Positions 1 to 32,871 of a DNA stretch of 32,871 nucleotides are shown here, in pieces (the stretch's first letter is position 1; every line of letters starts with the position of its first letter). The notes beneath the pieces were generated by a model, which saw nothing but the letters and a program-made list of their open reading frames with translations, was not told the origin of the DNA and did no database searches. The stretch is taken from IMG/VR virus record IMGVR_UViG_3300027509_000010. One strand, given 5' to 3'. Source of the DNA: a virus. The translations under genes and the position numbers were made by a program.

Positions 1-127
1 ATGGGTGGAGGTATTGGCGGCCGGTGCGGCCGGGGACTGCTAGCTCTGGCTGGGTCATGCTTGGGTCTCCAGGGTGTACTCGATGGTGGTGGATTGATCG
101 ATGCCCAGGGCGACGGTGTGGGTGGGG
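1..127. repeat. Left copy of a 127-bp exact direct terminal duplication, indicating a circular or terminally redundant contig
   Basis: Bases 1-127 (atgggtggaggtattggcgg...gtgtgggtgggg) are identical base for base to 32745-32871. Confidence 0.95.
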
Positions 128-569: not shown

Positions 570-916
570 CGGGAGAGTTTCTGGTCGTTGACGTAGGTGG
601 AGGCGGAACCGGCGAGCCAGAGGCCCAGGCGGAGTCCGGCGTTGCGCCAGAATGGGCGACGGACAGGGGACTCCCAGAGCGCTCCGCCGATTTCGATGGT
701 GTAGACCAGGCGGTCCCGGTGCTTGTGGCCGGGGGCCACGACGACGTCGGAGTGGCGGGCGTGGAGGGCGAACTCGTCGGCCCTGGTCTGGGCCTGGAGG
801 CTGTTGGCGTAGGTGTCGATGCACCACCAGCGGCGACCCAGGGCCAGGTAGTGGAGATATGCCTCCATCTGGTGTGGCTCACCGATGCAGATGGAGGCGA
901 TGCGAAACTGGGGCAT
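566..916 (-). CDS. Hypothetical protein, 116 aa
   Basis: Internal ATG of ORF 566..1114 overlaps the TAA of the upstream 61-aa gene by 1 nt. Composition is rich in W/Y/I/F/K, unlike the Gly/Val/Ala-rich antisense frame. Confidence 0.65.
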   Translation of the reverse strand: MPQFRIASICIGEPHQMEAYLHYLALGRRWWCIDTYANSLQAQTRADEFALHARHSDVVVAPGHKHRDRLVYTIEIGGALWESPVRRPFWRNAGLRLGLWLAGSASTYVNDQKLSR

Positions 917-1101
917 TACTGGCCGTACTTGGTGCGGAGGGTTTCTCCGGTGTAGATGACGGCGCCGTCGGTGTCGCTGTCGAGCTGGCGGGAGATGGCG
1001 TCCCAGCTCAATCCCTCCCCTCGACGTTCGGCGACCCAGTCCGGGAGGGCCTGGTCGAGCTTGATGTGGGCGAGTGTTTCCTGGGGTGTCTGTTTGGTCA
1101 T
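916..1101 (-). CDS. Small helix-turn-helix DNA-binding protein, 61 aa; first gene of the early operon
   Basis: The segment GLSWDAISRQLDSD has an HTH-like turn and recognition helix. The gene sits at the head of the long minus-strand gene string, divergent from the plus-strand gene at 1198. Confidence 0.6.
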   Translation of the reverse strand: MTKQTPQETLAHIKLDQALPDWVAERRGEGLSWDAISRQLDSDTDGAVIYTGETLRTKYGQ

Positions 1102-1197
1102 AGTCGCAGATCATATGGCAGATGGTTTGGAGAGGTCGGGATGGTGGCGGTGGGCGGGCCTATCGTTGACGGAATCCCTACAGAAAGCAACACACCC
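1102..1197. promoter_or_regulatory. Divergent intergenic control region
   Basis: 96-bp gap between divergent genes. On the minus strand TATGAT (revcomp of 1111-1116) lies 9 nt before the ATG at 1101 with no SD, which looks leaderless. GCAGAT is directly repeated at 1106-1111 and 1118-1123 around a CATATG palindrome. On the plus strand there is a TATCGT (TANNNT) at 1161-1166. Confidence 0.35.
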
Positions 1198-2454
1198 ATG
1201 ACAACCAACCGAGCGACACGGCCCCTGTTGGTCGTCGCACTCCTGGCCATGCTCCTGTCGAGCTTGTTCATTGCGACGGCCTCCGACTCCCAGGCCCAGG
1301 ACGGCGCTACCTGTCCGGCCGGGTTTCAATTGACGGCCGACGCCACCGCGTGTTTCCAGGCGGCGACGACGTCGACCAGCCCAGGAGTATGCGCCACTGG
1401 CCAGCCCACTCCCGACTCCCAGAATTGCTACGTCCTGGCGCGAGCTACAACCGAGACCGGCGAGGCCGTATGCCCAGATGACTACTCTCCAGACGACTCT
1501 CTTGGTGGGACGTGTGCTCGATTCGAGGCCGCCGCCCAGGACGCCGACATCTGCCCCGCTGGCGCCCGTGGAACTCCTGGCGCTTGCTACATCCTCGTGG
1601 CCAAGGGCTCGGACTCGGCGCCCGCTTGCACGGCGGAGGGCGCGGCCGCTGGCGGTGTCGTCTCTGGCTCCACTTGCGTCATCCCAGGACCGGCCCCGGA
1701 GGCTGGCACCAGGTGCCCCGTATCGGCAACGGTGACAGAGGCGGACGGTTCATGCTTTGAGACGGTCAGCCAGAACGTCTCCCCTGGCGCTTGCTCGGTC
1801 CCCTACATCGAGGTCGGCACCATCTGCAAGTTTCTCCCACCACTGGTCCAGGACGGTGGCTATGTCTGCCCAGAGGTTGCCGGTGTCACGATTGACAACG
1901 CCAGCCACAATCCAGGAACCCACACCAAGCTGACCCTCTGCTCCTACACCCCGGCCGCTATCAACACTGGATGTCCAGCCGGGACCACCCAGGTCGGCGA
2001 GACTTGCCGACGACCTCACCCTCTGGAGAACACTGGGTTGGCTTGCCAGGCGCCGTTTACCATCATTGACGGAGATACGTGTGTCCGCCACGAGGCCACG
2101 GTCATCATGGACGGCCAGTGCCCCACCACCTCGACGGAGGACACGGCGAACAATTGCCGCAAACCAGTCGCCAACCAGGACGGCCCATACATCTGCCCGA
2201 ACGGCGGGGCGCTCTCCGGGACGTCGTGCGTGTTCACTGCTGGGTTCCTGATTGACACGGACTCCATCTCCTACATGTGCGAGGCCGGTGACAGCGCCGT
2301 CCTCGCTGGGCAAGCGGTCTGTCTCCTGGCTGGCCCCACTGATGTCGTCGGTGTTGGATGCCTCCAGGGTGTCCTCTCGACGGACGGCCAGTTCTGCCTC
2401 GTGGACCTGGTCGTGACTCCGGCCTCGGTTCCTGTGCCAAGCTTTACTGGCTGA
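1198..2454 (+). CDS. Secreted cysteine-rich repeat protein, 418 aa, 14 two-Cys modules
   Basis: Sec-type signal peptide MTTNRATRPLLVVALLAMLLSSLFIATA/SD. The mature part has 28 Cys arranged as 14 pairs spaced 10-15 residues apart (one pair 23), and 8 pairs begin with CP, often as CPxG. It is a plus-strand gene followed by a strong hairpin terminator. Confidence 0.8.
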   Translation: MTTNRATRPLLVVALLAMLLSSLFIATASDSQAQDGATCPAGFQLTADATACFQAATTSTSPGVCATGQPTPDSQNCYVLARATTETGEAVCPDDYSPDDSLGGTCARFEAAAQDADICPAGARGTPGACYILVAKGSDSAPACTAEGAAAGGVVSGSTCVIPGPAPEAGTRCPVSATVTEADGSCFETVSQNVSPGACSVPYIEVGTICKFLPPLVQDGGYVCPEVAGVTIDNASHNPGTHTKLTLCSYTPAAINTGCPAGTTQVGETCRRPHPLENTGLACQAPFTIIDGDTCVRHEATVIMDGQCPTTSTEDTANNCRKPVANQDGPYICPNGGALSGTSCVFTAGFLIDTDSISYMCEAGDSAVLAGQAVCLLAGPTDVVGVGCLQGVLSTDGQFCLVDLVVTPASVPVPSFTG

Positions 2455-2499
2455 CAACTTCCGCTGGGACCCAGGAGCCGACGCCTGGGAGACCACGCG

Positions 2500-2550
2500 A
2501 AAAGGCCCCGCCACTTCCATCGCTGGAGGTAGCGGGGCCTTTCTCGTTTT
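2500..2550. terminator. Bidirectional intrinsic terminator between convergent genes
   Basis: aaaggccccgc (2501-2511) pairs with gcggggccttt (2532-2542). An inner 7-bp stem acttcca/tggaggt carries a tcgc tetraloop. The plus strand continues ctcgtttt, and the minus strand has a TTTT run. Confidence 0.6.
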
Positions 2551-2553
2551 GGG

Positions 2554-2748
2554 TTAAGCCAGGAGGTTGCGGCGGAGGCGGAGGCAGTGCTCGGCCTGGC
2601 GGTCGACGTCGAGGGCCAGGCGGAGGAACCGGCGCCCAGCCTGGGAGCCGTGGCCCCGCTCGGACGCCTTGCGGCGGAGGTCGTCGGCCTCGTTGCGGTG
2701 GATGCCCTCTGCGTTGTAGAGGCGGGTGATGTCTGCGGTGTTGTCCAT
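2554..2748 (-). CDS. Hypothetical protein, 64 aa; last gene of the accessory operon
   Basis: ATG-initiated ORF ending 4 nt before the bidirectional terminator. The sequence is charged and helical-looking. Confidence 0.55.
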   Translation of the reverse strand: MDNTADITRLYNAEGIHRNEADDLRRKASERGHGSQAGRRFLRLALDVDRQAEHCLRLRRNLLA

Positions 2749-2794
2749 AACAACACCCTACCGTGTACCAGGTGGCATACGCAACCTTGGTTGT

Positions 2795-3256
2795 TTATTC
2801 GAGCTGGAAAGGTTCCGTCCGCCACGTATGGAGGAGACCCTCGCGTCCACCCTCGGTGTCGATGGGAGTCTCGTGGCCGGTGAGCATCCAGACGGCGCCA
2901 CCCAGGGCCTCGTCCGCCTCCCGGACCTCCTCGGGGATGAGGTTGACGAACGTCTGAGTGACGCACCCCTCACGGTCTTGGCCGGTACCGGTCAGCAATC
3001 CCAGGACCACGCCTGGGGGCTCGACCGATTGCCACCAGAATGAGCCGACAACGTCCACCCTCTCGCGGTAGCACTTGGTCCCGGTGACGGAGACGGACTC
3101 CTCGGTGACCTCGTTGACGACCTGGACGGGGAAATCGGCGATGGGGTCCCAGACCCTGTTGGCGGCGACGGCGGCGAGGATGGCGGAGGTGGTGACCAGG
3201 GTCATGACGACCAGGGCGACCCAGGCGATTCGTGGAGTGTGGCGCTCGGGGCTCAT
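2795..3256 (-). CDS. N-terminally membrane-anchored protein, 153 aa
   Basis: ATGA overlap with the upstream gene (3253-3256). A single TM helix IAWVALVVMTLVTTSAILAAVAA is followed by a soluble domain of about 115 aa containing two Cys. Confidence 0.75.
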   Translation of the reverse strand: MSPERHTPRIAWVALVVMTLVTTSAILAAVAANRVWDPIADFPVQVVNEVTEESVSVTGTKCYRERVDVVGSFWWQSVEPPGVVLGLLTGTGQDREGCVTQTFVNLIPEEVREADEALGGAVWMLTGHETPIDTEGGREGLLHTWRTEPFQLE

Positions 3257-3588
3257 CTCTTGCCCTCGCTCGCCCAGTCGAGTTGCCGGTCCAGGGCGGC
3301 GGCCAGGGCGGCCTCTCGTTTCTGACTCTCCAGGAGGAGGACCTCCAGTTGCTTCTCTCGGTCCGCGGTGTCGGCCGTCTTCTGGCTGACGAGCTGGCCC
3401 CTGATGACAGCCCAGCCCAGGCCCAGGGTGACCAACCCCAGGACCCCGGTGGAGCCGTACTGGAGGACGTCGACCCCTGGGGTGACTGGGGTGGTCTGGC
3501 CCAGCCAGAGTCCGGCCTGGGCGGCGACGTTAGCGGCGAATGCGGCGGCGGTTGTGCCGAACGCTACGGGGAGGAGTGGGAGTGCCAT
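3253..3588 (-). CDS. Membrane protein with C-terminal coiled coil, 111 aa (holin-like topology)
   Basis: The internal ATG (MALPLLPVAFG...) is chosen because the longer ORF would overlap the upstream gene by 40 nt. There are two hydrophobic segments, then the charged helix KTADTADREKQLEVLLLESQKREAALAAALDRQ. Confidence 0.6.
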   Translation of the reverse strand: MALPLLPVAFGTTAAAFAANVAAQAGLWLGQTTPVTPGVDVLQYGSTGVLGLVTLGLGWAVIRGQLVSQKTADTADREKQLEVLLLESQKREAALAAALDRQLDWASEGKR

Positions 3589-3632
3589 ATCCGGCGAATG
3601 ATAGACCACCCATCCCCCACCCCTCGGCGATG

Positions 3633-3926
3633 TCAGGCCAGGCCGTTGAGCGCCCAGGACAACACCTCCCACTGGGCGTGGGCCACGAGCCCACCCAGGC
3701 CGTCCTCGCGGGCCTGGATGGACAGCTCCTGGAGCCGCTCCTCCATCTCGGTGTCACTCGGCGGGTCACCCAGCGGGGAGCATGAGGCGATGTCCACGGC
3801 GAGCCGGTTGTGGGCGATGGCCAGGCAGTCGTTGCACCACTCCCGGCCCTCGCCCAGAAAGGTGGCTGGCTGACCACAATGGCAGGGCGTGGAGACGGGG
3901 AGCCCCTCCAGGTCGAACAGTCTCAC
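3633..3926 (-). CDS. Zinc-ribbon protein, 97 aa
   Basis: GTG start overlaps the upstream TGA as GTGA (3923-3926). The motif is CHCG-x12-CNDC. Confidence 0.6.
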   Translation of the reverse strand: MRLFDLEGLPVSTPCHCGQPATFLGEGREWCNDCLAIAHNRLAVDIASCSPLGDPPSDTEMEERLQELSIQAREDGLGGLVAHAQWEVLSWALNGLA

Positions 3927-4696
3927 GGCGTCCCCCAGTTCGTGAGACGTCGAGGTGGTCGGACGTTGGCGATGGCCAGGCGAGTGGCCACCTCGTCCTC
4001 CCGGTGAAGGTGGCAGAGTGGGCGGCGGCGCTCGGCCCTGTTCCTGGTCCACGCCGGGAGCCCGCAATGGCGACACTCCCCGGCCAGGCCGCTGTCCTCA
4101 CCCAGGACGAGAGGGTCCGGCCCTCCACTCAGGGCGAGGGAGAGAGGGGCGAACGCCTCCGCCACTCGCTCCATGGCCTCGACCCACTGGTCCGACGCCT
4201 CGACGACCTGGACGACGGAATCGAACCACAGGTCCGGCCTGGGTAGGTCTCGGTCTCGGATGGTGAACTCCCGGAACCCTGGAGTGGCAGGGCCAGCCAC
4301 GGAGTGGAGGACCAGCGGGGAGATTCCCAGAGGCCAGCGCGCTCCGCCCGCCTCGACCAGGTCCCAGTAGTCCTCCGCCAGAGGGTCGAGCTGTCGCTCC
4401 GACGGGGAGGATGGGAACGGCGGCCGCCTGGCGACCAGGCCCTCCTCGTCCCGGACCTCGGTCATGTAAAGGCGACACGGTTGGCAGAACCATCCGTCCT
4501 CCAGGTCGAGGTGGAGCGAGGTGCAACGGACGCATCCATCGTCTATGACTGGGCCGACGTCGCTGTAGTGCTCCATGCTCCGCTGGGTGGGCGAGGCGAG
4601 GACGTCGAGGACGGCGTGGGTGGCCCTGGTGATGACGTCGGCCGGGAGGTGGAGGTCATCAATGCCCTCCAGGATGGAGTCGTAGGTGGTGGTCAT
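3923..4696 (-). CDS. Hypothetical protein with two zinc-ribbon motifs, 257 aa
   Basis: ATGA overlap with the upstream gene (4693-4696). Motifs are CVRC-x12-CQPC near the N-terminus and CRHCG-x15-CHLH near the C-terminus. Confidence 0.75.
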   Translation of the reverse strand: MTTTYDSILEGIDDLHLPADVITRATHAVLDVLASPTQRSMEHYSDVGPVIDDGCVRCTSLHLDLEDGWFCQPCRLYMTEVRDEEGLVARRPPFPSSPSERQLDPLAEDYWDLVEAGGARWPLGISPLVLHSVAGPATPGFREFTIRDRDLPRPDLWFDSVVQVVEASDQWVEAMERVAEAFAPLSLALSGGPDPLVLGEDSGLAGECRHCGLPAWTRNRAERRRPLCHLHREDEVATRLAIANVRPPRRLTNWGTP

Positions 4697-4887
4697 TTGA
4701 GCCAGCCCGATAGTCCGGTCCGGCCCTTGACGACCATGGCCGCCTTGCCCTCGTGGAGGGAGCAGTAGCGGCCGGGGTTGTAGATGGACAGGATGGTCCC
4801 GCACCCCTCGGCGCATCGGCGGCCCTCGACCTTGGCCTTGGGCTCGTGGGTGACGGTCTCTCCTGGCCGGTTCCGTAACGTCGCCAT
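4693..4887 (-). CDS. Small zinc-binding protein, 64 aa
   Basis: Start overlaps the LuxR gene stop by 1 nt. The motif is CAEGCG-x11-CSLH. Confidence 0.7.
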   Translation of the reverse strand: MATLRNRPGETVTHEPKAKVEGRRCAEGCGTILSIYNPGRYCSLHEGKAAMVVKGRTGLSGWLK

Positions 4888-5186
4888 TAGAGGAGCGCCT
4901 CCGGGACCTGATCGGCGGCGCCTGGGTGGAGGGCACCCATGACCACAATGGCCTTGTCCAGTTGCTTGACCCTGTAGCCCAGGACCAGGGCGACGGCCTT
5001 GGTTTGGCTGGGGACGTCGAGCTTGCGGAGGATGGCCTTGACCTGGTTGCGGACGGTGCCCTCGCCTTTCTTGAGTTTGGTGGCGACCTCGGCGATATCG
5101 AGGCCCTTGGTGAGGAGGCGGAGGACGTCGACCTCGGCCGGGGTGAGTGTCTTTATGAGCGAACCCAGAGGCTTGCGGCCGGTCAT
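4887..5186 (-). CDS. LuxR/GerE-family helix-turn-helix transcriptional regulator, stand-alone, 99 aa
   Basis: LTPAEVDVLRLLTKGLDIAEVATKLKKGEGTVRNQVKAILRKLDVPSQTKAVAL matches the GerE-type HTH pattern (LT.rE..vL.l...G....eIA..L..s..TV..h...i..KL.v..r..Av). ATGA overlap with the upstream gene. Confidence 0.88.
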   Translation of the reverse strand: MTGRKPLGSLIKTLTPAEVDVLRLLTKGLDIAEVATKLKKGEGTVRNQVKAILRKLDVPSQTKAVALVLGYRVKQLDKAIVVMGALHPGAADQVPEALL

Positions 5187-5401
5187 TGCTGGGCCTCCTT
5201 GCGTAGGTCGGCGATGACTTCCAGGAGCTGATTGCGTGTCCGCTCGGCGCCGTCGTTCTCCGCGTAGTTGAGGAGGCCGACCATGCGGAGGGCCACGTCC
5301 TCGCTCATGCCGGAGATGAGTGGCGTGCGGTCGAGGACTGTGCAGATGGCCCAGCGGTTGACGTCCCAGGAGTGTGGGCGGGCGGTAAATTTAATGCCCA
5401 T
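5183..5401 (-). CDS. Hypothetical protein, 72 aa
   Basis: The ATG (MGIKFT...) overlaps the upstream TGA by 1 nt. The ORF track extends it two codons to a TTG. Confidence 0.65.
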   Translation of the reverse strand: MGIKFTARPHSWDVNRWAICTVLDRTPLISGMSEDVALRMVGLLNYAENDGAERTRNQLLEVIADLRKEAQQ

Positions 5402-7403: not shown

Positions 7404-9635
7404 CTAGAAAGTGACAGTCCCCGCCTCCGTCAGACCAGTCCCTCCAGAGGCGGCCACGGCCGTCCCCGTGGTTCGCGCCGTGACGTTGTCGATCCGCTTG
7501 AGTGCGGTGGCGGCGAGGACGAGGAGCTGGGTCTCGTGGCAGTCAATGAGGAGGTCGGAGGAAATAACCTCGTCGGTCGCTCCCAGTTTGACGGCCCTGT
7601 TGACGGTGCCGGTGGTGACCTCGTCGCGGAAGGTGCAACCGCGGGCGACGGTCTGCCGGTTACTGGAGGTCTCCAGCAACACCAGGAGGGTGCCGGTGGT
7701 GTTGTGCACGTACAACCCGACGAACTCGGCCAGGCCGTCGTGGAACGCGTAGATGACCCTGGAGGAGGTGTTGGGGTTGCTCGTGACGAACGTGTCGCCC
7801 ACACTCTTCCAGTAGGCCAGCGGGGCTCCGTCAATGCGGGCCATGTACTGGATGGCCTCGGTGCCAGTGTCCTCGAAACGATTGTTGCGGGTCTCCAGGC
7901 TGGTCGCTGCTGGGGTGGCGCTGGGTCCGTCCCCGATGAACAAGGCCGGACCGGAGAAGGCGCCCACCCACTCGACTGACTCCACGCGGATGGAGCCCTG
8001 GAAATACCCGACGGTGTTAGATGCGATGAGCCCCTGGGAGGCGACTGGGCTAGAGCCCTTGACGTCCACCACCTTGAGGTCGCCGGTCATGAACGAGGTG
8101 GTGTTCCGGCCTCGGACGATGCTGATGGGTTCGGTGACGGCGTCCGCTACGACCCCGGAGATGGAGACGCTATGGCCTCGCTGGAACTCCACGACGGCCC
8201 CATCGTTGTCGGCCTGCCCGAACTTGGAGCCCAGGCGGGCGCCGTCGAGGAGGAGGGACCCACTGTTCATGGCGACGACGGAGTAGGCGCCGTCCACGGT
8301 GACGTTCTCGACGTTGACCTGGTCCGTGGTCACTCCGCTGGACCCAGCATTGACAGCAAGGGCGCCAGAGGTCGAGGAGTCGAAGTGGAAACCCACGACA
8401 CTGTTGATGTCCCCCTGGGCCACCACTCCGTTCTCGAATGCGCCCAGGACCTTGTCGTCGGTGCTCCGGTAACTGGAGCCCAGTTGGTAGCGGAAACCAG
8501 TGAGGACAGAGGTCTGGCCCTCGGCCTTGAGGTCGTCCACCCAGATGAGGTTGCCGATAGTTCGACCCACGATGCTCTGGAGTTTCGCTGCGCTCTTGAG
8601 GACGTTGCGGAACAGGGAGTCCCGGATGGTGACCTGGGTGCGGTCGAGGGCCGCCTGGTTGGCGGTGGTTCGCGCAGCGTCGCCAGCGTCCTCATAGAAG
8701 AAAACGCGCACCCCGTCAGAGTCTGGGAACAGGAGGCCGCCCCCGTTCCGCTTGGTCCAGATGTCAGAGAAAAGACAAGCGTCGAATAGATGGGAGACCG
8801 GCGCCAGGTCGTCGGCCCCGTCCGAGTTGTTGGAAATCCAGGCGCCTCCGCAGAAACCTCCAATACCTCCGGTGTCGGTGACGGTGGTGATGTTGGACCA
8901 GGAGCATCCGCGGTGCTCGGTGTGGGCTCCCAGGTAGTAGGCGGAGCCGTATTGCTTGTGGTTCTCGGCCCCGTTGACGCTCCTGTAGTGGACGTCCGTT
9001 TCGTTGACCTGGGCGCCGTAGTCAATCATCCCCGTCTCCGCCCCGTCGATGAACGAGTGGCCACCTCCGTCGAATGTGACGCCGGAGATTTCGACGTCTC
9101 CCTGGAACTCGATGGCTGGACCGGCGTGGCCTCCGGTGGCCGTCAAGATGGGGTTGCCTATCCCCTCGACTTTGATGGTGTCGGGGACCTCGATGCCTGG
9201 GGCGTAGCTGGCGTCCTGGTCCACGACGAGCCAGGCCACGTCCGATGTCAGAGCGGCGACCAGGTCCCCTCCGAAGTCTCGGGACAGGAACCGGACCGGA
9301 GAGGCGTCTTGGTGCCAGTCGCTCCCGTCGTAGGTCAGGTCCACCCTCTGACCTCCGGTGTAGTCGCGGAGGGTGCCGTTGATGCTGACCGACATCGAGC
9401 CGCCTGTTGCGACAGTCAGGCGGACCATGTCTCCGGGGTCGGCCGTTGCCGGGAGGGTGACGGTTCCGGTGGCCACGTAGGAGCCGCCGACCTTGGCCGT
9501 CTCCCCGTCTGCCAGGGCGCCCAGGGGGCGGAGCATCACCTCCTGGTTGTCGCGGACTTGGCGCCCCCATAGAGATATGGGGAAATTGACGGCGGCGGTC
9601 GGGATTTGGTGAGTGGCGAGGTCCACGTAGGTCAT
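7404..9635 (-). CDS. Tailspike / receptor-binding protein with a right-handed beta-helix (pectate-lyase-like) domain, 743 aa
   Basis: The start MTYVDLATHQIP is preceded by AAGGAA. Gly/Asn/Val-rich rungs recur (e.g. VNVENVTVDGAYSVVAMNSGSLLLDGARLG, VEISGVTFDGGGHSF). It is the last structural gene before the lysis genes. Confidence 0.75.
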   Translation of the reverse strand: MTYVDLATHQIPTAAVNFPISLWGRQVRDNQEVMLRPLGALADGETAKVGGSYVATGTVTLPATADPGDMVRLTVATGGSMSVSINGTLRDYTGGQRVDLTYDGSDWHQDASPVRFLSRDFGGDLVAALTSDVAWLVVDQDASYAPGIEVPDTIKVEGIGNPILTATGGHAGPAIEFQGDVEISGVTFDGGGHSFIDGAETGMIDYGAQVNETDVHYRSVNGAENHKQYGSAYYLGAHTEHRGCSWSNITTVTDTGGIGGFCGGAWISNNSDGADDLAPVSHLFDACLFSDIWTKRNGGGLLFPDSDGVRVFFYEDAGDAARTTANQAALDRTQVTIRDSLFRNVLKSAAKLQSIVGRTIGNLIWVDDLKAEGQTSVLTGFRYQLGSSYRSTDDKVLGAFENGVVAQGDINSVVGFHFDSSTSGALAVNAGSSGVTTDQVNVENVTVDGAYSVVAMNSGSLLLDGARLGSKFGQADNDGAVVEFQRGHSVSISGVVADAVTEPISIVRGRNTTSFMTGDLKVVDVKGSSPVASQGLIASNTVGYFQGSIRVESVEWVGAFSGPALFIGDGPSATPAATSLETRNNRFEDTGTEAIQYMARIDGAPLAYWKSVGDTFVTSNPNTSSRVIYAFHDGLAEFVGLYVHNTTGTLLVLLETSSNRQTVARGCTFRDEVTTGTVNRAVKLGATDEVISSDLLIDCHETQLLVLAATALKRIDNVTARTTGTAVAASGGTGLTEAGTVTF

Positions 9636-9648
9636 CGGCTTGGGTTCC

Positions 9649-9677
9649 TTGTTGGGTGGGTGTCCGCCCAATAGTAC
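9649..9677 (+). promoter_or_regulatory. Possible weak promoter for the HNH gene
   Basis: TTGTTG (9649-9654), a 17-nt spacer, then TAGTAC (9672-9677), 24 nt before the ATG at 9702. Confidence 0.25.
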
Positions 9678-9701
9678 GGCCCCGCCCCTACTGTCGAGGT
9701 C

Positions 9702-9962
9702 ATGTCCAGAGGAGGCCGCCCCTGGAGGCGCAAGTGTGAGCGAGTCAGACGGGAGGAGTCCCATTGCTGGCTATGCCATCGGGAGATAGACAAGTCCCTG
9801 GAGTACCCGGACCCTGGCTACTTCTCCGTGGACCACGTTGTCCCGGTCAGCAAGGGCGGAGGCGACGAGAGGTCCAACCTCCGCGCGGCCCACCTCGAAT
9901 GCAACCAGTCGCGGGGCAATAGTGACCCAGAGCGGACACGGCCTCAATCTCGGGAATGGTGA
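9702..9962 (+). CDS. HNH endonuclease, 86 aa
   Basis: Motifs are CWLCH...DHVVPVSKGGGDERSNLRAAHLECNQSRG, i.e. a zinc knuckle plus the H-N-H core. Confidence 0.88.
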   Translation: MSRGGRPWRRKCERVRREESHCWLCHREIDKSLEYPDPGYFSVDHVVPVSKGGGDERSNLRAAHLECNQSRGNSDPERTRPQSREW

Positions 9963-9966
9963 GATT

Positions 9967-10027
9967 TCCCACGGAGCGTGGCGTTTTGGCTCTGCCGGCG
10001 GAGCATTTCGCCCACTCTCCGTGGGGA
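9967..10027. repeat. Imperfect inverted repeat between the convergent HNH and tail genes (possible terminator)
   Basis: tcccacggagcgtggcg (9967-9983) pairs with cgcccactctccgtgggga (10009-10027). This gives about 16 bp with 2 bulges and 1 mismatch and a 25-nt loop. There is no clear U tract. Confidence 0.3.
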
Positions 10028-10041
10028 TTTCGAGCTCAATT

Positions 10042-11142
10042 TTAGGCCGGTTCTACGGTCACCAGCGGGGTGTCCACCAGGCCGTTGACGCCAGCGGTGG
10101 ACTTGCGGCCCAGGGTGACGACGGTGTCCTGGCGCTCCGCCGTGATGGTGGTGGTGGAGTCGGCGACGGCCAGGCGGAGGGTCTCCTCGCCCAGGCGGAC
10201 GTCAACAGACTGTCCGACTCTGGGGATGGACCGGAACCTGGACAGCTCGAAAGTGACGGCCAGGGAGCGGCCGCCAGTGAGGACAGCGGCCTGGGCTAGA
10301 TCGGTGAGAGTTGCGCCGTCTGCCCCTGCTTGCTGGCTAAGTGCCTCGACGCGGCGCCATGGGTCCCCTCCGCTCGCGTCGAACACGGCGGAGGCCCTGT
10401 CCGCTCCGTCCCCTTGGCCCAGGTAGTAGACCGCGGAGGCTGTTGCTGGGACCACGTCGGCGTCGATGGCGGAGGCGGTCCCGGCCTCGATTGAGACGGG
10501 GAGGTCGAGGTGGTCGAGGGGTTGGACGGAGAACTCCAGGGAGCCCTCTGACCATCGTGTCTCCATGCGGTAGTCGCTGGTCCCGATGGCGGCGGCCGCC
10601 ACGTCTCCCACGAAGGTGTAGCGGGCGGAGATGGATGCCTGGGGACCCAGGCCGGTGTCCGTGATTGTCCAGCCGGGGAACGCTCGGCCTGGTCCGGCGT
10701 CTGGCCCCATGTTCGCGGCGATGAGGGCGGCGACAGCGGAGCCGACAGGGCCGGTGGCCTCGAACCTGTCGGAGTGTTCAGGTGGGAGGGCGAGACGATG
10801 CCAGAGGGTGGCGGTGTCGTCTGGGCCGGTGGCGGCGATGGTTGCCTGGGCGCGCTGCCGTCCGGCCGCTTCGTAGCTGTAGCGGAGGCGGGCGCCGTCG
10901 TTGCCCACTCCGATGGGGCCGGAGAATAGTTGCTCGTCGGTCTCTGGGTCGAGGACCACGATGCCGTCGCCTGGCTGGGAGAGGGCGGACGCTCCTGGGT
11001 GGTTCTCTGGGTAGGTCAGGACCCAGCCGCCGCGGCCGTTGAGGGCTTCGCGGTAGATGAGGGAGACGTAGCCGGTGGTGAGGTCGGCGGTGGATTCCAT
11101 CGAGCCGTTCCTGGCCAGGACCTTTAGGAGCATGTCAGCCAC
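10042..11142 (-). CDS. Minor tail protein (Tal-like / baseplate hub N-terminal-type), 366 aa
   Basis: The position after the Dit-like gene fits the conserved Dit-Tal order of siphoviruses. It starts at GTG 11142, or alternatively at ATG 11133. Confidence 0.65.
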   Translation of the reverse strand: MADMLLKVLARNGSMESTADLTTGYVSLIYREALNGRGGWVLTYPENHPGASALSQPGDGIVVLDPETDEQLFSGPIGVGNDGARLRYSYEAAGRQRAQATIAATGPDDTATLWHRLALPPEHSDRFEATGPVGSAVAALIAANMGPDAGPGRAFPGWTITDTGLGPQASISARYTFVGDVAAAAIGTSDYRMETRWSEGSLEFSVQPLDHLDLPVSIEAGTASAIDADVVPATASAVYYLGQGDGADRASAVFDASGGDPWRRVEALSQQAGADGATLTDLAQAAVLTGGRSLAVTFELSRFRSIPRVGQSVDVRLGEETLRLAVADSTTTITAERQDTVVTLGRKSTAGVNGLVDTPLVTVEPA

Positions 11143-12050
11143 TTGTCATACCAGCGGACGGATGCGGACGGCGGGTTGTTGTTGCCTTCCAGGCCGATGA
11201 TGTAGGGGGTGGCGGTTGAGGGCGGGAACGACCAGAAGGTGGACCGGACGTCGATGTCGCTGTATCTGTTGGCGCCGTTGACGGTGACGGAGCGGCGAGC
11301 GGGGTCGGTCACGATCTCCAGGGTTTCGCCGTCGAGGACGTCGCCGTTGAACCATAGGAGGAGGTCTCCCAGGCGGGCGGCGAATGAGGTGAATGGGCCG
11401 TCCACCTCCCAGGTTGGCCATGATTCCACGGCGCCGTATTCGCCGATGAGTCCAGAGTCGAAAGACTCGGCGTAGACAGGCCCCCACATTGCGCCGTCGT
11501 CCCAGAGTGCTGTTGGTTCATCCCAGAGCGGGGTCACGTCGCCGGAGAAGTCGAGGACGTCGGAGCGTTCCGGGCTCCTCCAGTAGGGGTCCTCTGCCCG
11601 AAATGCCAGGATGACCTTGGCGGAGCGCATCTCACAATGGAGGATGGAGAGGCCGGTCTGGCCTCCGATGAGGACGGCGTCTATGTGTCGGTCGTTGAGG
11701 GTGCCGTAGGGGCTGGTGTAGGTAAAGGTGACGGGGTCGTCTTGGAGGACGGGGTCCACTCCGTCCATGAGGCGGGCGATGACCTGGTCCACGGTTTGGG
11801 TGTCGTCTGTTCGGATGGTGAGGGGGAGGATGATGTCGCGGGCGCCGTGGGTGACGGTGGTGATCTGGGAGCCGGGGAGCCCCACGAGGGGGCGCTCCCG
11901 GAACCTCGACGGAGGGCCGCCCCAGAGGGCCGGGTTGGAGCCCAGGCGTAGCTCTGCGTTGGTGTCGCCGAATGCTCCGGTGGCGCTTTCTCCGTAGATG
12001 AGGGGGACGGTGAAGTCTCCGCGGCTCATGACTAGCTGGCGGGGTCCCAT
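11124..12050 (-). CDS. Distal tail protein (Dit-like), 308 aa
   Basis: It lies immediately downstream of the tape measure gene, with a 1-nt start/stop overlap. Size and position are typical of siphovirus Dit. Confidence 0.7.
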   Translation of the reverse strand: MGPRQLVMSRGDFTVPLIYGESATGAFGDTNAELRLGSNPALWGGPPSRFRERPLVGLPGSQITTVTHGARDIILPLTIRTDDTQTVDQVIARLMDGVDPVLQDDPVTFTYTSPYGTLNDRHIDAVLIGGQTGLSILHCEMRSAKVILAFRAEDPYWRSPERSDVLDFSGDVTPLWDEPTALWDDGAMWGPVYAESFDSGLIGEYGAVESWPTWEVDGPFTSFAARLGDLLLWFNGDVLDGETLEIVTDPARRSVTVNGANRYSDIDVRSTFWSFPPSTATPYIIGLEGNNNPPSASVRWYDKWLTCS

Positions 12051-32802: not shown

Positions 32803-32871
32803 GCTTGGGTCTCCAGGGTGTACTCGATGGTGGTGGATTGATCGATGCCCAGGGCGACGGTGTGGGTGGGG
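32745..32871. repeat. Right copy of the 127-bp terminal duplication
   Basis: Identical to 1-127. It duplicates the 3' end of CDS 55..288 and the start codon region of CDS 30685..32802. Confidence 0.95.

What the first reader, a model, noticed from the sequence alone, without database searches (positions are those of the whole stretch)
1198..2454. Opposite-strand cassette encoding a secreted protein made of 14 two-cysteine modules (28 Cys)
This is one of only three plus-strand genes. It is insulated from the accessory operon by a strong bidirectional hairpin (2500-2550). The product has a clear Sec signal peptide (AxA-type site ATA/SD).

The mature part consists of 14 successive modules of about 25-30 aa. 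Each has one Cys pair spaced 10-15 residues apart (one pair is 23 apart). Eight of the 14 modules begin with CP, often as CPxG: CPAGFQLTADATAC, CPAGARGTPGAC, CPAGTTQVGETC, CPNGGALSGTSC.

The pattern resembles small disulfide-stapled hairpin repeats of the EGF/furin-like kind. I do not recognise it as a named bacterial or phage family. A secreted repeat protein transcribed against the flow of a phage genome has the hallmarks of a moron. Candidate roles are surface modification, superinfection exclusion, an adhesin or a decoy.
Basis: partly seen in the sequence, partly recalled or inferred. Interest (0 to 1): 0.7.

Follow-up and report, generated by a model that had tools for sequence, protein, structure and literature searches.

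The report
Phage copy of host cysteine-repeat protein
A phage of uncultured marine or lake actinobacteria carries its own copy of a host gene for an exported, disulfide-stapled rod protein from an unnamed family; every member ends in the same seven residues, and the likely role is to alter the surface of the infected cell.

Summary
ORF 1198-2454 (+) encodes 418 aa: an N-terminal signal peptide, then 28 Cys at near-constant spacing, read as 14 two-Cys modules. A strong two-way terminator hairpin (2497-2547) follows.

Pfam, NCBIfam, PHROGs, PADLOC and PDB searches give no named family. It is nevertheless a real, conserved family:
- About 60 full-length homologues (42-50% identical) keep all 28 Cys, the signal peptide and an invariant C-terminus, P-x-P-x-F-T-G-COOH.
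- Most homologues with readable context are cellular genes of uncultured Acidimicrobiales. They are stand-alone or in tandem arrays of 2-3, with conserved ends and a variable middle.
- They carry a conserved structured 5' leader that the phage copy lacks.
- One homologue lies on a second phage-like contig that shares no other detectable protein.
- Larger paralogues built from the same modules end in class-E-sortase-type LAxTG signals.

The window is a complete, 127-bp terminally redundant actinophage genome of about 32.7 kb. No integrase or repressor was detected, so the lysogenic-conversion part of the "moron" reading is unsupported.

Best reading: a host-derived, exported envelope or stalk protein expressed as a self-contained cassette to remodel the infected cell surface, for example by masking a receptor. 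That function is inferred, not shown.

The parts
1102..1197 (.). 96-bp divergent intergenic region between the Cys-repeat gene (+) and the first gene of the early operon (-). It is presumed to hold both promoters.
   Evidence: Sequence read. TANNNT-type -10 candidates: TATCGT at 1161-1166 (+), and TATGAT on the minus strand at 1115-1110, 8 nt before ATG 1101. The sigma-70 consensus scan found no promoter-like site. The promoters are inferred only.
1198..2454 (+). Gene for the 418-aa exported protein: signal peptide, 14 two-Cys modules and a C-terminal tail ending PVPSFTG.
   Evidence: There are 61 homologues with E<=1e-3. An alignment of 52 sequences keeps all 28 Cys. The AlphaFold2 model has mean pLDDT 83.6 and consists of short beta-hairpins.
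1198..1299 (+). Signal peptide, residues 1-34: MTTNRATRPLLVVALLAMLLSSLFIATASDSQA, with predicted cleavage before Q35.
   Evidence: Hydropathy peak at residue 10. It aligns to the conserved host signal, LAALSMLLSGLFIATASRSDA. Small relatives use AxA|Q sites. Majority-residue conservation is 0.90 in the h-region against 0.67 for mature non-Cys positions. No SignalP run.
1312..2397 (+). Fourteen two-Cys modules, C39 to C400. Modules 1-4 and 11-14 are conserved; modules 5-10 are the variable part in host homologues.
2431..2451 (+). C-terminal heptapeptide PVPSFTG, followed directly by the TGA stop at 2452-2454. This is the signature of the family.
   Evidence: P412, P414, F416, T417 and G418 are invariant in 52 sequences. 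77 of 203 related proteins end in F-[T/S]-G; over the 80 tails ending [F/Y]-[T/A]-G (the window's own included), -5 is P in 77/80, -3 F in 79/80, -2 T in 79/80 and -1 G in 80/80. Reading through the stop gives no hydrophobic segment (sequence).
2497..2547 (.). Two-way intrinsic-terminator-like hairpin between the Cys-repeat gene and the end of the converging minus-strand operon.
   Evidence: -54.8 and -53.9 kcal/mol, z-scores -4.8 and -4.1, none of 200 shuffles as stable. U-runs follow on both strands.
916..1101 (-). Context: a 61-aa gene, first of the divergent minus-strand operon. That operon continues through genes of 116, 94 and 77 aa and, across the terminal repeat, into the 705-aa exonuclease and the primase/helicase.
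   Evidence: JGI gene calls, GC3 analysis, PHROGs. No family hit for the 61-aa protein.
2554..2748 (-). Context: a 64-aa gene, last of the converging minus-strand operon (tail genes, amidase, GerE regulator, small ORFs).

Best explanation
What it is.
- ORF 1198-2454 is a functional phage gene, most simply read as captured from the host lineage.
- The protein is exported by the Sec pathway and its signal peptide is removed. Outside the cytoplasm it folds into an elongated string of 14 beta-hairpin modules, each stapled by one disulfide. It ends in the invariant tail P-x-P-x-F-T-G-COOH.
- It belongs to an unnamed protein family of uncultured Acidimicrobiales (Actinomycetota).

What the host family looks like.
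- The genes are stand-alone and often tandemly duplicated.
- Their ends (signal peptide, modules 1-4 and 11-14, tail) are conserved and their middle is variable.
- Larger paralogues made of the same modules carry LAxTG sorting signals, the type used by class E sortases to anchor proteins in the cell wall.
- Together this points to a cell-envelope or surface stalk protein.

What the phage does with it (inferred).
- The phage expresses its diverged copy as an autonomous cassette. A promoter is presumed in the 96-bp divergent region shared with the early operon, and the cassette has its own two-way terminator.
- My best guess at the role is remodelling of the infected cell's surface. The phage version keeps the ends that plug the protein into the host envelope but differs in the exposed middle. 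It could therefore replace, mask or compete with the host's own copies, which would reduce further phage adsorption (superinfection, or loss of progeny on debris).

Shown versus inferred.
- Shown: gene reality, family membership, architecture, host distribution, cassette anatomy.
- Inferred: export and disulfide pairing, surface location, direction of transfer, timing of expression, and the whole exclusion or masking function.
- I put about 0.8 on the descriptive part and about 0.25-0.3 on the specific function.
For: The gene is real and under constraint.
- 61 homologues; full-length ones are 42-50% identical, with all 28 Cys, the signal peptide and PxPxFTG invariant.
- dN/dS is 0.06-0.69 in every region and pair that could be measured.

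Fold.
- AlphaFold2 mean pLDDT 83.6, with 222 residues at 90 or above; only short hairpins. The low pTM of 0.43 fits a rod.

Pairing register.
- Small proteins of 81-118 aa contain only the last pair, or the first and last pairs.

Host origin and surface role.
- Cellular contexts in L001 (between pyrH and frr), L003, L004 and L049.
- All five hits among GTDB species-representative genomes are metagenome-assembled Acidimicrobiales or Actinomycetota genomes.
- NCBI names two short relatives as Acidimicrobiales proteins.
- Tandem arrays of 2-3 copies occur in L026, L028, L015 and L017.
- In the more diverged host pairs the middle modules have 2-3 times higher dN than the ends; close tandem copies show little difference.
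- Paralogues with the same modules carry LAxTG plus a membrane segment plus an RRR tail, SpaA-like or CarboxypepD_reg domains, RTX repeats or dockerin-like ends.
- Actinobacteria use class E sortases on LAXTG, and MdbA for disulfides in exported proteins (PMC11231552, PMC9046445).

Use by phages.
- The window is a complete siphovirus-type genome with a 127-bp terminal repeat.
- A second phage-like contig (L002: large terminase, minor tail protein), which shares no other detectable protein in the 11.6 kb held, also carries a copy.
- The two phage copies group together outside the host clade.
- The phage copy lacks the conserved host promoter and leader.
- Its G+C (0.649) matches the phage (0.655) rather than the three measured host genes (0.54-0.63).
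- Host family members occur in the same sample and its sister sample (L037, L053, L036, L049).
Against: - No experiment or expression data exist, and the promoter was not detected by the consensus scan.
- The function of the host family is itself unknown.
- Region-level dN/dS never exceeds 1, so there is no direct sign of an arms race in the variable middle.
- The window copy has lost the VPR[IL]D motif that precedes the tail in host copies (CLVDLVV instead). This could mean altered function or partial decay.
- GC3 of 0.75 is below the 0.80-0.87 of other phage genes. That is compatible with a less integrated, more recent passenger.
- The grouping of the two phage copies could be long-branch attraction.
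- No related phages are available to show that the gene is retained over time.
Confidence: 0.45

Rival explanations
1. Interaction with sortase. The tail [P]-[S/A/T]-F-T-G-COOH is a class-E-type sorting pentapeptide (LAxTG, for example LAFTG) cut off by a stop codon directly after the Gly. It has no membrane segment and no charged tail. The protein would either be processed or anchored by the host's class E sortase in an unusual way, or it would act as an uncleavable mimic that occupies the sortase and so changes which proteins the infected cell displays.
For: - Paralogues with the same modules end in a Pro/Ala-rich linker, then LA[V/F/L/A/H/Y]TG, then a membrane segment, then RRR. Three of them have exactly LAFTG.
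- Family tails have the same Pro/Ala-rich linker followed by x-[S/A/T]-F-T-G, and they always stop at G.
- LAXTG is the class E signal in Actinobacteria, and LAFTG is the signal of C. diphtheriae SpaB (PMC11231552, PMC9046445).
- For S. aureus SrtA the Gly 'cannot be a free carboxylate' (PMC5714338). A ...TG-COOH end would therefore be a poor substrate, which fits a mimic.
Against: - The position of Leu is an invariant Pro, and the free 'x' position is an invariant Phe. The constraints therefore differ from LAxTG.
- Both defining downstream elements of a sorting signal are absent.
- In about 480 kb of host DNA, no protein outside this family ends in FTG, so it is not a general sorting tag.
- No sortase gene was seen next to any copy.
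- The resemblance may be only T-G plus a small residue.
Confidence: 0.12
2. Released adhesin or decoy. The protein is secreted into the medium or loosely bound to the wall. It would bind an external ligand such as particles, polysaccharide, other cells or competing phages. The benefit would come from its binding activity, not from replacing host copies.
For: - It has a signal peptide but no membrane anchor, lipobox or wall-sorting signal.
- It has a rod-like repeat architecture.
- Paralogues combine the modules with adhesin-type stalk domains, RTX repeats and dockerin-like ends.
Against: - No recognisable ligand-binding domain.
- The most conserved parts are the two termini, not a candidate binding surface.
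- It does not explain why the signal peptide and the tail are held so constant.
Confidence: 0.18
3. Neutral passenger. The gene is a recently captured host gene with no benefit to the phage and is on its way to decay.
For: - GC3 of 0.75 is lower than in neighbouring phage genes.
- The gene sits at a module boundary where insertions are tolerated.
- The VPR[IL]D motif has been lost.
- No related phages are available to show retention.
Against: - The ORF is intact with all 28 Cys, the signal peptide and the tail, despite 50-58% amino-acid divergence from every known host copy.
- Overall G+C equals that of the phage.
- The host regulatory leader has been replaced, and the gene has its own strong terminator.
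- A second phage-like contig with no other shared protein keeps a copy.
Confidence: 0.12
4. Virion or tail-fibre component, or a lysis accessory protein.
For: Repeat-rich rods are common in phage fibres. The only significant structural match was to an unnamed 981-aa viral protein in BFVD (E=3e-8).
Against: - A Sec signal peptide and extracytoplasmic disulfides do not fit assembly of virions in the cytoplasm.
- The gene is on the opposite strand, outside the structural module and the amidase module.
- Most homologues are stand-alone cellular genes.
Confidence: 0.03

Closest known systems
Single-disulfide beta-hairpin ('beta-finger') modules of eukaryotic cysteine-rich domains: the C5-C6 sub-domain of EGF/cEGF, and the furin-like and TNFR/laminin-type modules
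   Same: - Short beta-hairpins, each closed by one local disulfide, strung into a rod.
- Module 1, CPAGFQLTADATAC, resembles the cEGF motif C-P-x-G-[FY]-x-L...C.
- The only Pfam hits are sub-threshold ones to cEGF and EGF_LRP2.
- Weak, non-significant Foldseek hits include CD40, HVEM, NELL2 and VLDLR.
   Different: - Two Cys per module of about 26 aa, not six per 40.
- Scores of 11-13 bits against cut-offs of 27-30.
- No PDB fold match at E<0.5.
- The family is bacterial or phage-borne, with its own signal peptide and FTG tail.
Class E sortase substrates of Actinobacteria (LAXTG wall-sorting signal; for example Streptomyces long chaplins, C. diphtheriae SpaB with LAFTG)
   Same: - Signal peptide, extracellular repeat body, Pro/Ala-rich linker, then x-[S/A]-F-T-G.
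- True LAxTG-anchored paralogues share the same Cys modules.
   Different: - The protein stops at the Gly, with no hydrophobic segment and no basic tail.
- Pro replaces Leu, and Phe is fixed at the 'x' position.
Phage morons and receptor-blocking or superinfection-exclusion proteins exported to the envelope (my own knowledge: T5 Llp, TP-J34 Ltp, phi80/N15 Cor, lambda Lom/Bor)
   Same: - A small autonomous transcription unit with its own terminator.
- An accessory position at a module boundary.
- An exported product.
- A plausible effect on the cell surface.
   Different: - No sequence or profile similarity.
- No lipobox.
- No sign of lysogeny in this genome.
- Here the gene is a homologue of a host envelope-protein family rather than a phage invention.
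Chaplins of Streptomyces (my own knowledge): a family with short secreted forms and long sortase-anchored forms
   Same: - The family comes in small versions (signal peptide plus one two-Cys domain), medium versions and long LAxTG-anchored versions.
- It is actinobacterial and exported.
   Different: - No sequence similarity.
- The modules are not hydrophobic or amyloid-like.
- The FTG tail has no counterpart in chaplins.

Membership tests
Unnamed 'FTG-COOH' Cys-repeat family of Acidimicrobiales (defined here) | Full-length collinear homology, with all Cys positions conserved | tested here: met
   E=1e-95 to 1e-57 for full-length members, query coverage 93-100%. All 28 Cys columns are conserved in the alignment of 52 sequences.
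Unnamed 'FTG-COOH' Cys-repeat family of Acidimicrobiales (defined here) | Terminal module C-x-x-G-V-L-S-x-D-x-x-x-C, then a linker, then P-x-P-x-F-T-G directly followed by a stop codon | tested here: met
   The window has CLQGVLSTDGQFC...PVPSFTG followed by TGA. It lacks the VPR[IL]D motif present in most members.
EGF-like / cEGF domains (Pfam PF12662, PF24468 and relatives) | Profile match above Pfam's gathering score | tested here: not met
   11.5 and 12.5 bits against cut-offs of 26.6 and 30. The same holds for homologues.
EGF-like / cEGF domains (Pfam PF12662, PF24468 and relatives) | Six cysteines (three disulfides) per domain of about 40 aa | tested here: not met
   Two Cys per module of about 26 aa, with spacing of 11-17 throughout.
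Class E sortase substrate (LAXTG cell-wall sorting signal) | N-terminal secretion signal | tested here: met
   n/h/c architecture and hydropathy. No SignalP run.
Class E sortase substrate (LAXTG cell-wall sorting signal) | Pentapeptide L-A-x-T-G | tested here: inconclusive
   The tail is P-S-F-T-G. T, G and a small residue at P3 agree; Leu at P4 is replaced by an invariant Pro.
Class E sortase substrate (LAXTG cell-wall sorting signal) | Hydrophobic membrane segment and positively charged tail after the pentapeptide | tested here: not met
   The stop codon directly follows Gly418. Read-through or shifted frames give no hydrophobic segment and run into the terminator.
Phage moron (autonomous extra gene in a phage genome) | Own terminator and own promoter | tested here: inconclusive
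   The terminator is strong. The promoter is inferred only: TATCGT at 1161 is a candidate, and the consensus scan found nothing.
Phage moron (autonomous extra gene in a phage genome) | Inserted between genes that are adjacent in related phages | not testable with these tools
   No related phage was found in INPHARED or IMG/VR, nor by protein search. The closest portal proteins are 36% identical or less, in Arthrobacter and Gordonia phages.
Phage moron (autonomous extra gene in a phage genome) | Base composition different from its neighbours | tested here: inconclusive
   GC3 is 0.75 against 0.80-0.87 for neighbouring genes, but overall G+C is 0.649 against 0.655 for the window.
Phage moron (autonomous extra gene in a phage genome) | Expressed from a prophage (lysogenic conversion) | tested here: not met
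   No integrase or repressor family was found in the window proteins scanned. The genome is a stand-alone contig with a terminal repeat. Expression itself was not testable.
Known superinfection-exclusion or anti-phage defence proteins | Profile similarity to a described family, or a lipoprotein or membrane anchor | tested here: not met
   No hit in PADLOC or PHROGs. There is no lipobox cysteine; the first Cys is residue 39, after the predicted cleavage site.
Bacterial cysteine-rich repeats in NCBIfam, and RTX proteins | Profile match | tested here: not met
   NCBIfam gives no hit for the window protein at E<=1. RTX repeats occur only in the distant, longer relatives P0058, P0060 and P0061.

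The most novel reading that the evidence does not exclude
The invariant ...P-x-P-x-F-T-G-COOH end marks a new class of actinobacterial envelope proteins. Their terminus would be a stop-codon-truncated relative of the class E sortase signal, recognised by the sortase or by another dedicated partner. Phages of Acidimicrobiales would have captured such a gene to impersonate a variable host surface protein, possibly their own receptor, so that the infected cell becomes refractory to further adsorption. This would be a host-mimicry form of superinfection exclusion. It would also give a first handle on cell-surface biology and phage-host recognition in an abundant, uncultured aquatic lineage.
Probability: 0.15. 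Interest if true: 0.8.

Novelty: new variant of a known kind. Interest (0 to 1): 0.55.

Why it matters
- Acidimicrobiales are abundant in seas and lakes but are almost entirely uncultured. Their envelope proteins and their phages are essentially uncharacterised.
- This locus defines an unnamed exported protein family. Its fixed C-terminal motif echoes the actinobacterial sortase signal yet lacks the anchor, which poses a clear biochemical question.
- The locus also links a complete phage genome to a probable host lineage through a shared gene.
- It is a candidate case of a phage expressing a look-alike of a host surface protein.
- If the masking or mimicry idea holds, it would be a new route to superinfection exclusion.
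- If it does not hold, the result is still a well-delimited new family, plus a conserved leader RNA upstream of the host copies.

Tried and rejected
Searches that found no named family.
- Pfam, NCBIfam, PHROGs and PADLOC profile searches of the protein and its neighbours.
- A PDB sequence-profile search: the only hit is a chance match at E=1.
- Foldseek against PDB: nothing below E=0.5.
- Foldseek against BFVD: one significant match (A0A6M6DDH0, 981 aa, E=3e-8), but no name or sequence was on hand and no paper mentions it.

Searches for related phages.
- Megablast of 8 kb and tblastn of the protein against INPHARED found nothing.
- Three scans of IMG/VR found nothing: two peptide-pattern searches and one degenerate DNA pattern.

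Ideas tested and rejected or left open.
- The 32,884-bp contig from the sister sample (L049) is cellular, not a sister phage. It has the same ABC-transporter to DUF3159 gene order as L004.
- FTG-COOH is not a general sorting tag. In about 480 kb of related DNA, only this family and spurious ORFs end that way. A dedicated tail profile found only seven small relatives.
- Positive selection in the variable middle was not shown: region-wise dN/dS stays below 1.
- Read-through of the stop codon into a membrane anchor is rejected by direct reading of the sequence.
- The antisense ORF 1750-2520 is not the real gene. Homologues, conserved Cys columns and the frame all support the plus strand.

Dead ends.
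- A full tblastx of the loci against the window gave only noise.
- Cluster look-ups gave no taxon names for the LAxTG paralogues.
Full report
OBSERVATION
- ORF 1198-2454 on the plus strand translates to 418 residues.
- It has 28 cysteines. Successive gaps are 11-17 residues, with one of 24 (mean 13.4, CV 0.19). In 100,000 random placements of 28 Cys the lowest CV was 0.43.
- The modules are related in sequence and not only in Cys spacing. Profiles built from each module hit other modules reciprocally: m1/m2 2e-7, m5/m12 8e-7, m9/m11 3e-6, m4/m6 1.6e-4, m7/m10 2.6e-4.
- The N-terminus, MTTNRATRPLLVVALLAMLLSSLFIATASDSQA|QDG, has the n/h/c layout of a Sec signal. It contains the only strongly hydrophobic stretch in the protein.
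- The hairpin after the gene lies at 2497-2547. It is far more stable than shuffled sequence on both strands (z = -4.8 and -4.1) and is followed by U-runs on both strands.
- The public gene call for this contig starts at an internal GTG (1732) and gives only 240 aa. Homologues align from residue 1, so ATG 1198 is the true start.

GENOMIC SETTING
- The window has a 127-bp direct terminal repeat. It is therefore a complete genome of about 32.74 kb, circularly permuted or terminally redundant.
- Almost everything is on the minus strand:
  - exonuclease, primase/helicase and RuvC-like resolvase;
  - large terminase, portal, protease and major capsid protein;
  - tape measure, Dit, a Sipho_Gp37-like tail protein and a 743-786-aa protein with no family;
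  - an amidase, a GerE/LuxR-type regulator and small ORFs.
- No integrase or repressor family was detected in the window proteins scanned.
- The closest isolated phages by portal protein are Arthrobacter, Gordonia, Mycobacterium and Microbacterium phages, at 36% identity or less. This is a distant, orphan actinophage.
- No related genome was found in INPHARED or IMG/VR.
- The Cys-repeat gene sits exactly between the end of the late or accessory minus-strand operon, which it converges on at the shared terminator, and the start of the early minus-strand operon. That operon runs from the 61-aa gene at 916-1101 through three small genes and, across the terminal repeat, into the exonuclease. The Cys-repeat gene diverges from it across 96 bp.
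- In temperate siphoviruses this slot usually holds the lysogeny module; here it holds only this gene.
- Candidate -10 hexamers exist for both divergent units (TATCGT at 1161 on the plus strand, TATGAT at 1115-1110 on the minus strand). This is inference only, and the sigma-70 consensus scan found nothing.

THE PROTEIN FAMILY
- Pfam, NCBIfam, PHROGs and PADLOC contain no matching family. The only hits are sub-threshold ones to cEGF and EGF_LRP2.
- A PDB sequence-profile search found nothing.
- A search of 5.8 billion proteins found 61 relatives. Full-length ones (365-495 aa) are 42-50% identical to the window protein and collinear with it.
- In an alignment of 52 sequences, all 28 Cys columns, much of the signal peptide and the last residues (P412, P414, F416, T417, G418) are invariant.
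- A profile search of 1.84 billion cluster representatives found only 146 proteins at E<=1e-3, so this is a rare family.
- 77 of the 203 proteins collected end in F-[T/S]-G. Over the 80 tails ending [F/Y]-[T/A]-G (the window's own included), -7 is P in 74, -5 P in 77, -3 F in 79, -2 T in 79 and -1 G in 80.
- Some relatives are complete small proteins of 81-118 aa. They consist of a signal peptide (AxA|Q), zero or one CPxG...C module, the terminal module N-[VI]-T-T-T-S-C-x-Q-G-V-L-S-x-D-G-x-x-C-[IV]-V-P-R-[LI]-D, a Pro/Ala-rich linker and P-[VI]-P-[SAT]-F-T-G.
- These small proteins show two things. The C-terminal 45 or so residues are the core of the family.
- AlphaFold2 run on the family alignment gives mean pLDDT 83.6, with 222 residues at 90 or above. 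The model has only short beta-hairpins, a low pTM of 0.43 as expected for a rod, and a disordered extreme C-terminus.
- Foldseek finds no PDB relative below E=0.5.
- In BFVD there is one significant match to an unnamed 981-aa viral protein, A0A6M6DDH0 (E=3e-8), which I could not identify.

WHERE THE HOMOLOGUES LIVE
- Cellular contexts examined:
  - P0003 lies on a 132-kb contig between pyrH and frr, in the conserved rpsB-tsf-pyrH-frr-cdsA-dxr-rseP-ispG cluster.
  - P0014 lies among fatty-acid metabolism genes.
  - P0019 and L049 lie after an oligopeptide ABC transporter, HlyIII, SpoU and DUF3159, and before an ECF sigma factor.
- All five hits in the GTDB species set are metagenome-assembled genomes of Acidimicrobiales or Actinomycetota. 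NCBI labels two short relatives as Acidimicrobiales.
- Host contigs carry tandem arrays of two or three copies (L026, L028, L015, L017). One has an 82-aa small version 2 kb from a full-length copy (L003).
- Members occur in the phage's own sample and its sister sample (L037, L053, L036, L049).
- One homologue, P0002, lies on a different phage-like contig (L002) with a large terminase, a small-terminase-like protein, a minor tail protein and an endonuclease VII-like protein. That contig shares no detectable protein with the window phage in the 11.6 kb held.
- In a neighbour-joining tree the two phage-borne copies are sisters on long branches outside the host clade. Long-branch attraction cannot be excluded.

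EVOLUTIONARY SIGNALS
- All regions are under purifying selection (dN/dS 0.06-0.69).
- In the more diverged host pairs, modules 5-10 have two to three times the dN of modules 1-4 and 11-14; close tandem copies show little difference. The ends are conserved and the middle is variable, but no region reaches dN/dS above 1.
- Host copies share a strongly conserved upstream region of about 190 nt. It comprises a promoter-like TTGCGT...GTTATGGT and a leader of about 105 nt with two hairpins inside an outer stem. Two pairs in the first hairpin show compensatory changes (CCGGG/CCCGG, CCAGG/CCUGG, CCAAG/CUUGG). A strong ribosome-binding site follows, and the start codon is GTG.
- Rfam has no match for this leader.
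- Synonymous divergence in the part of the gene encoding the signal peptide is several-fold lower than in the rest of the gene, for example 0.13 against 0.97-1.41.
- Neither phage copy has this leader.
- The window gene's G+C (0.649) equals that of the phage (0.655) and exceeds that of the three measured host genes (0.54-0.63). Its GC3 (0.75) is somewhat below the 0.80-0.87 of neighbouring phage genes.

PARALOGUES AND THE C-TERMINAL TAIL
- Larger proteins (365-1550 aa) built from the same modules end in a Pro/Ala-rich linker, then L-A-[V/F/L/A/H/Y]-T-G, a hydrophobic segment and an Arg-rich tail.
- That is the class E sortase wall-sorting signal of Actinobacteria (PMC11231552). Three of these proteins have exactly LAFTG, the motif of C. 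diphtheriae SpaB (PMC9046445).
- Some of them contain SpaA-like prealbumin or CarboxypepD_reg domains. Others end in RTX repeats or dockerin-like motifs.
- The module is therefore a building block of extracellular, wall-associated proteins in this lineage.
- The family tail, a Pro/Ala-rich linker followed by P-[S/A/T]-F-T-G and a stop, looks like such a signal cut off directly after the Gly.
- It differs from the canonical signal in three ways: an invariant Pro where Leu should be, an invariant Phe at the free position, and no membrane segment or charged tail.
- For S. aureus sortase A the Gly of LPXTG cannot be a free carboxylate (PMC5714338). By analogy this end would be a poor substrate.
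- In about 480 kb of related DNA, no protein outside this family ends in FTG, so it is not a general tag.
- I treat the sortase link as a lead, not a finding.

HOW IT MOST LIKELY WORKS
- Shown:
  - a real, constrained gene in an autonomous cassette;
  - a product with a signal peptide, 14 homologous two-Cys hairpin modules and the family tail;
  - a family otherwise encoded by Acidimicrobiales chromosomes, with wall-anchored paralogues.
- Inferred:
  - The protein is exported by Sec and oxidised outside the cytoplasm. Actinobacteria have MdbA-type oxidoreductases (PMC9046445).
  - It forms a rod that associates with the envelope through its conserved ends.
  - The phage captured it from a host, replaced the host regulatory leader, and expresses it from the early-region divergent promoter.
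- My preferred function is surface remodelling. A phage-made variant of a host stalk protein would compete with or mask the host's own copies and so reduce further adsorption. I give that specific function about 0.25-0.3.
- Rivals are a released adhesin or decoy, a sortase mimic or unusual sortase substrate, a neutral passenger, and (very unlikely) a virion or lysis component.

COMPARISON AND NOVELTY
- In kind, this is a phage accessory gene of host origin that encodes an exported protein, which is a familiar category.
- It is not a member of the EGF, TNFR or RTX families, of canonical sortase substrates, or of any described superinfection-exclusion or defence family. The defining features were tested and not met.
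- New elements are:
  - the family itself;
  - its invariant FTG-COOH terminus;
  - its small, medium and wall-anchored forms;
  - the conserved leader RNA of host copies;
  - its presence in two phage genomes that share no other detectable protein;
  - the link it provides between an orphan phage genome and Acidimicrobiales.
- I rate it 'new variant of a known kind', with interest 0.55.

Noticed in passing
window 1-127 and 32745-32871: The first and last 127 bases of the window are identical. The window is therefore a complete phage genome of about 32.74 kb, terminally redundant or circularly permuted. The JGI contig Ga0114957_1001035 (32,867 bp) is the same genome starting at a different point.
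   Followed up: partly
window 1198-1731: The public (JGI) gene call for this gene starts at GTG 1732 and gives a 240-aa product (P0001). It misses the signal peptide and the first five and a half modules. The homologue alignment shows the true start is ATG 1198.
   Followed up: yes
L004 about 9810-10003; also L001, L005-L009, L011-L055 (33 distinct upstream regions): Host copies of the gene have a highly conserved promoter-like region and a structured 5' leader of about 105 nt. The leader has an outer stem enclosing two hairpins; two pairs show compensatory changes, and a small hairpin overlaps the ribosome-binding site. The start codon is GTG. Rfam has no match. The leader is absent from both phage copies. 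It is a candidate new cis-regulatory RNA of Acidimicrobiales.
   Followed up: partly
L026 5944-7281, 7776-9113, 9914-11251; L015, L017, L028; L003 13253-13501 (-): Host genomes carry tandem arrays of two or three full-length copies, each with its own leader. At least one also has an 82-aa small version 2 kb from a full-length copy. Synonymous divergence is several-fold lower in the part encoding the signal peptide than in the rest of the gene, which suggests constraint at the nucleotide level or gene conversion at the 5' end.
   Followed up: partly
proteins P0062, P0064, P0065, P0075, P0076, P0079, P0083, P0085, P0088, P0123, P0147, P0180, P0188: Larger paralogues built from the same Cys modules end in class-E-sortase-type signals (LAxTG, then a membrane segment, then RRR). 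Others end in RTX repeats plus a CxGGxGxDTAxxxCE motif, or in dockerin-like DAxRLLQCLVDD..C ends. P0209 (1128 aa), from the same 90%-identity cluster as the LAxTG-ended P0064, lies on a 6,285-bp JGI contig, the same length as Ga0114957_1011231 (L053) from the phage's own sample; its own C-terminus was not inspected.
   Followed up: partly
structure model m39618dcd5741 against BFVD: There is one significant structural match to an unnamed 981-aa viral protein, UniProt A0A6M6DDH0 (E=3e-8, 16% identity over 465 columns). A weaker match is to a Clandestinovirus 'hemagglutinin' (E=1e-3). The identity of the first could not be looked up.
   Followed up: no
window 2554-5401 (-): Downstream of the amidase, the minus-strand operon ends in about ten small genes with no family match, except a GerE/LuxR-type helix-turn-helix protein (4887-5186).
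   Followed up: partly
window 7404-9764 (-): A 743-786-aa protein directly after the Sipho_Gp37-like tail protein has no Pfam or PHROG match. By position it is the likely receptor-binding protein, and so the natural partner to test against the host Cys-repeat family.
   Followed up: no
window, whole: No integrase, excisionase or repressor family was detected in the window proteins scanned, and there are no tRNA genes and no Rfam matches. The phage shows no sign of being temperate.
   Followed up: yes
L002 (Logan SRR22808013_18395, 24,121 bp), gene at 10001-11293: A second phage-like contig carries a homologue (48% identical). It lies on the same strand as, and just downstream of, the large terminase and two small ORFs, near the contig end. 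This insertion site differs from the one in the window phage.
   Followed up: partly
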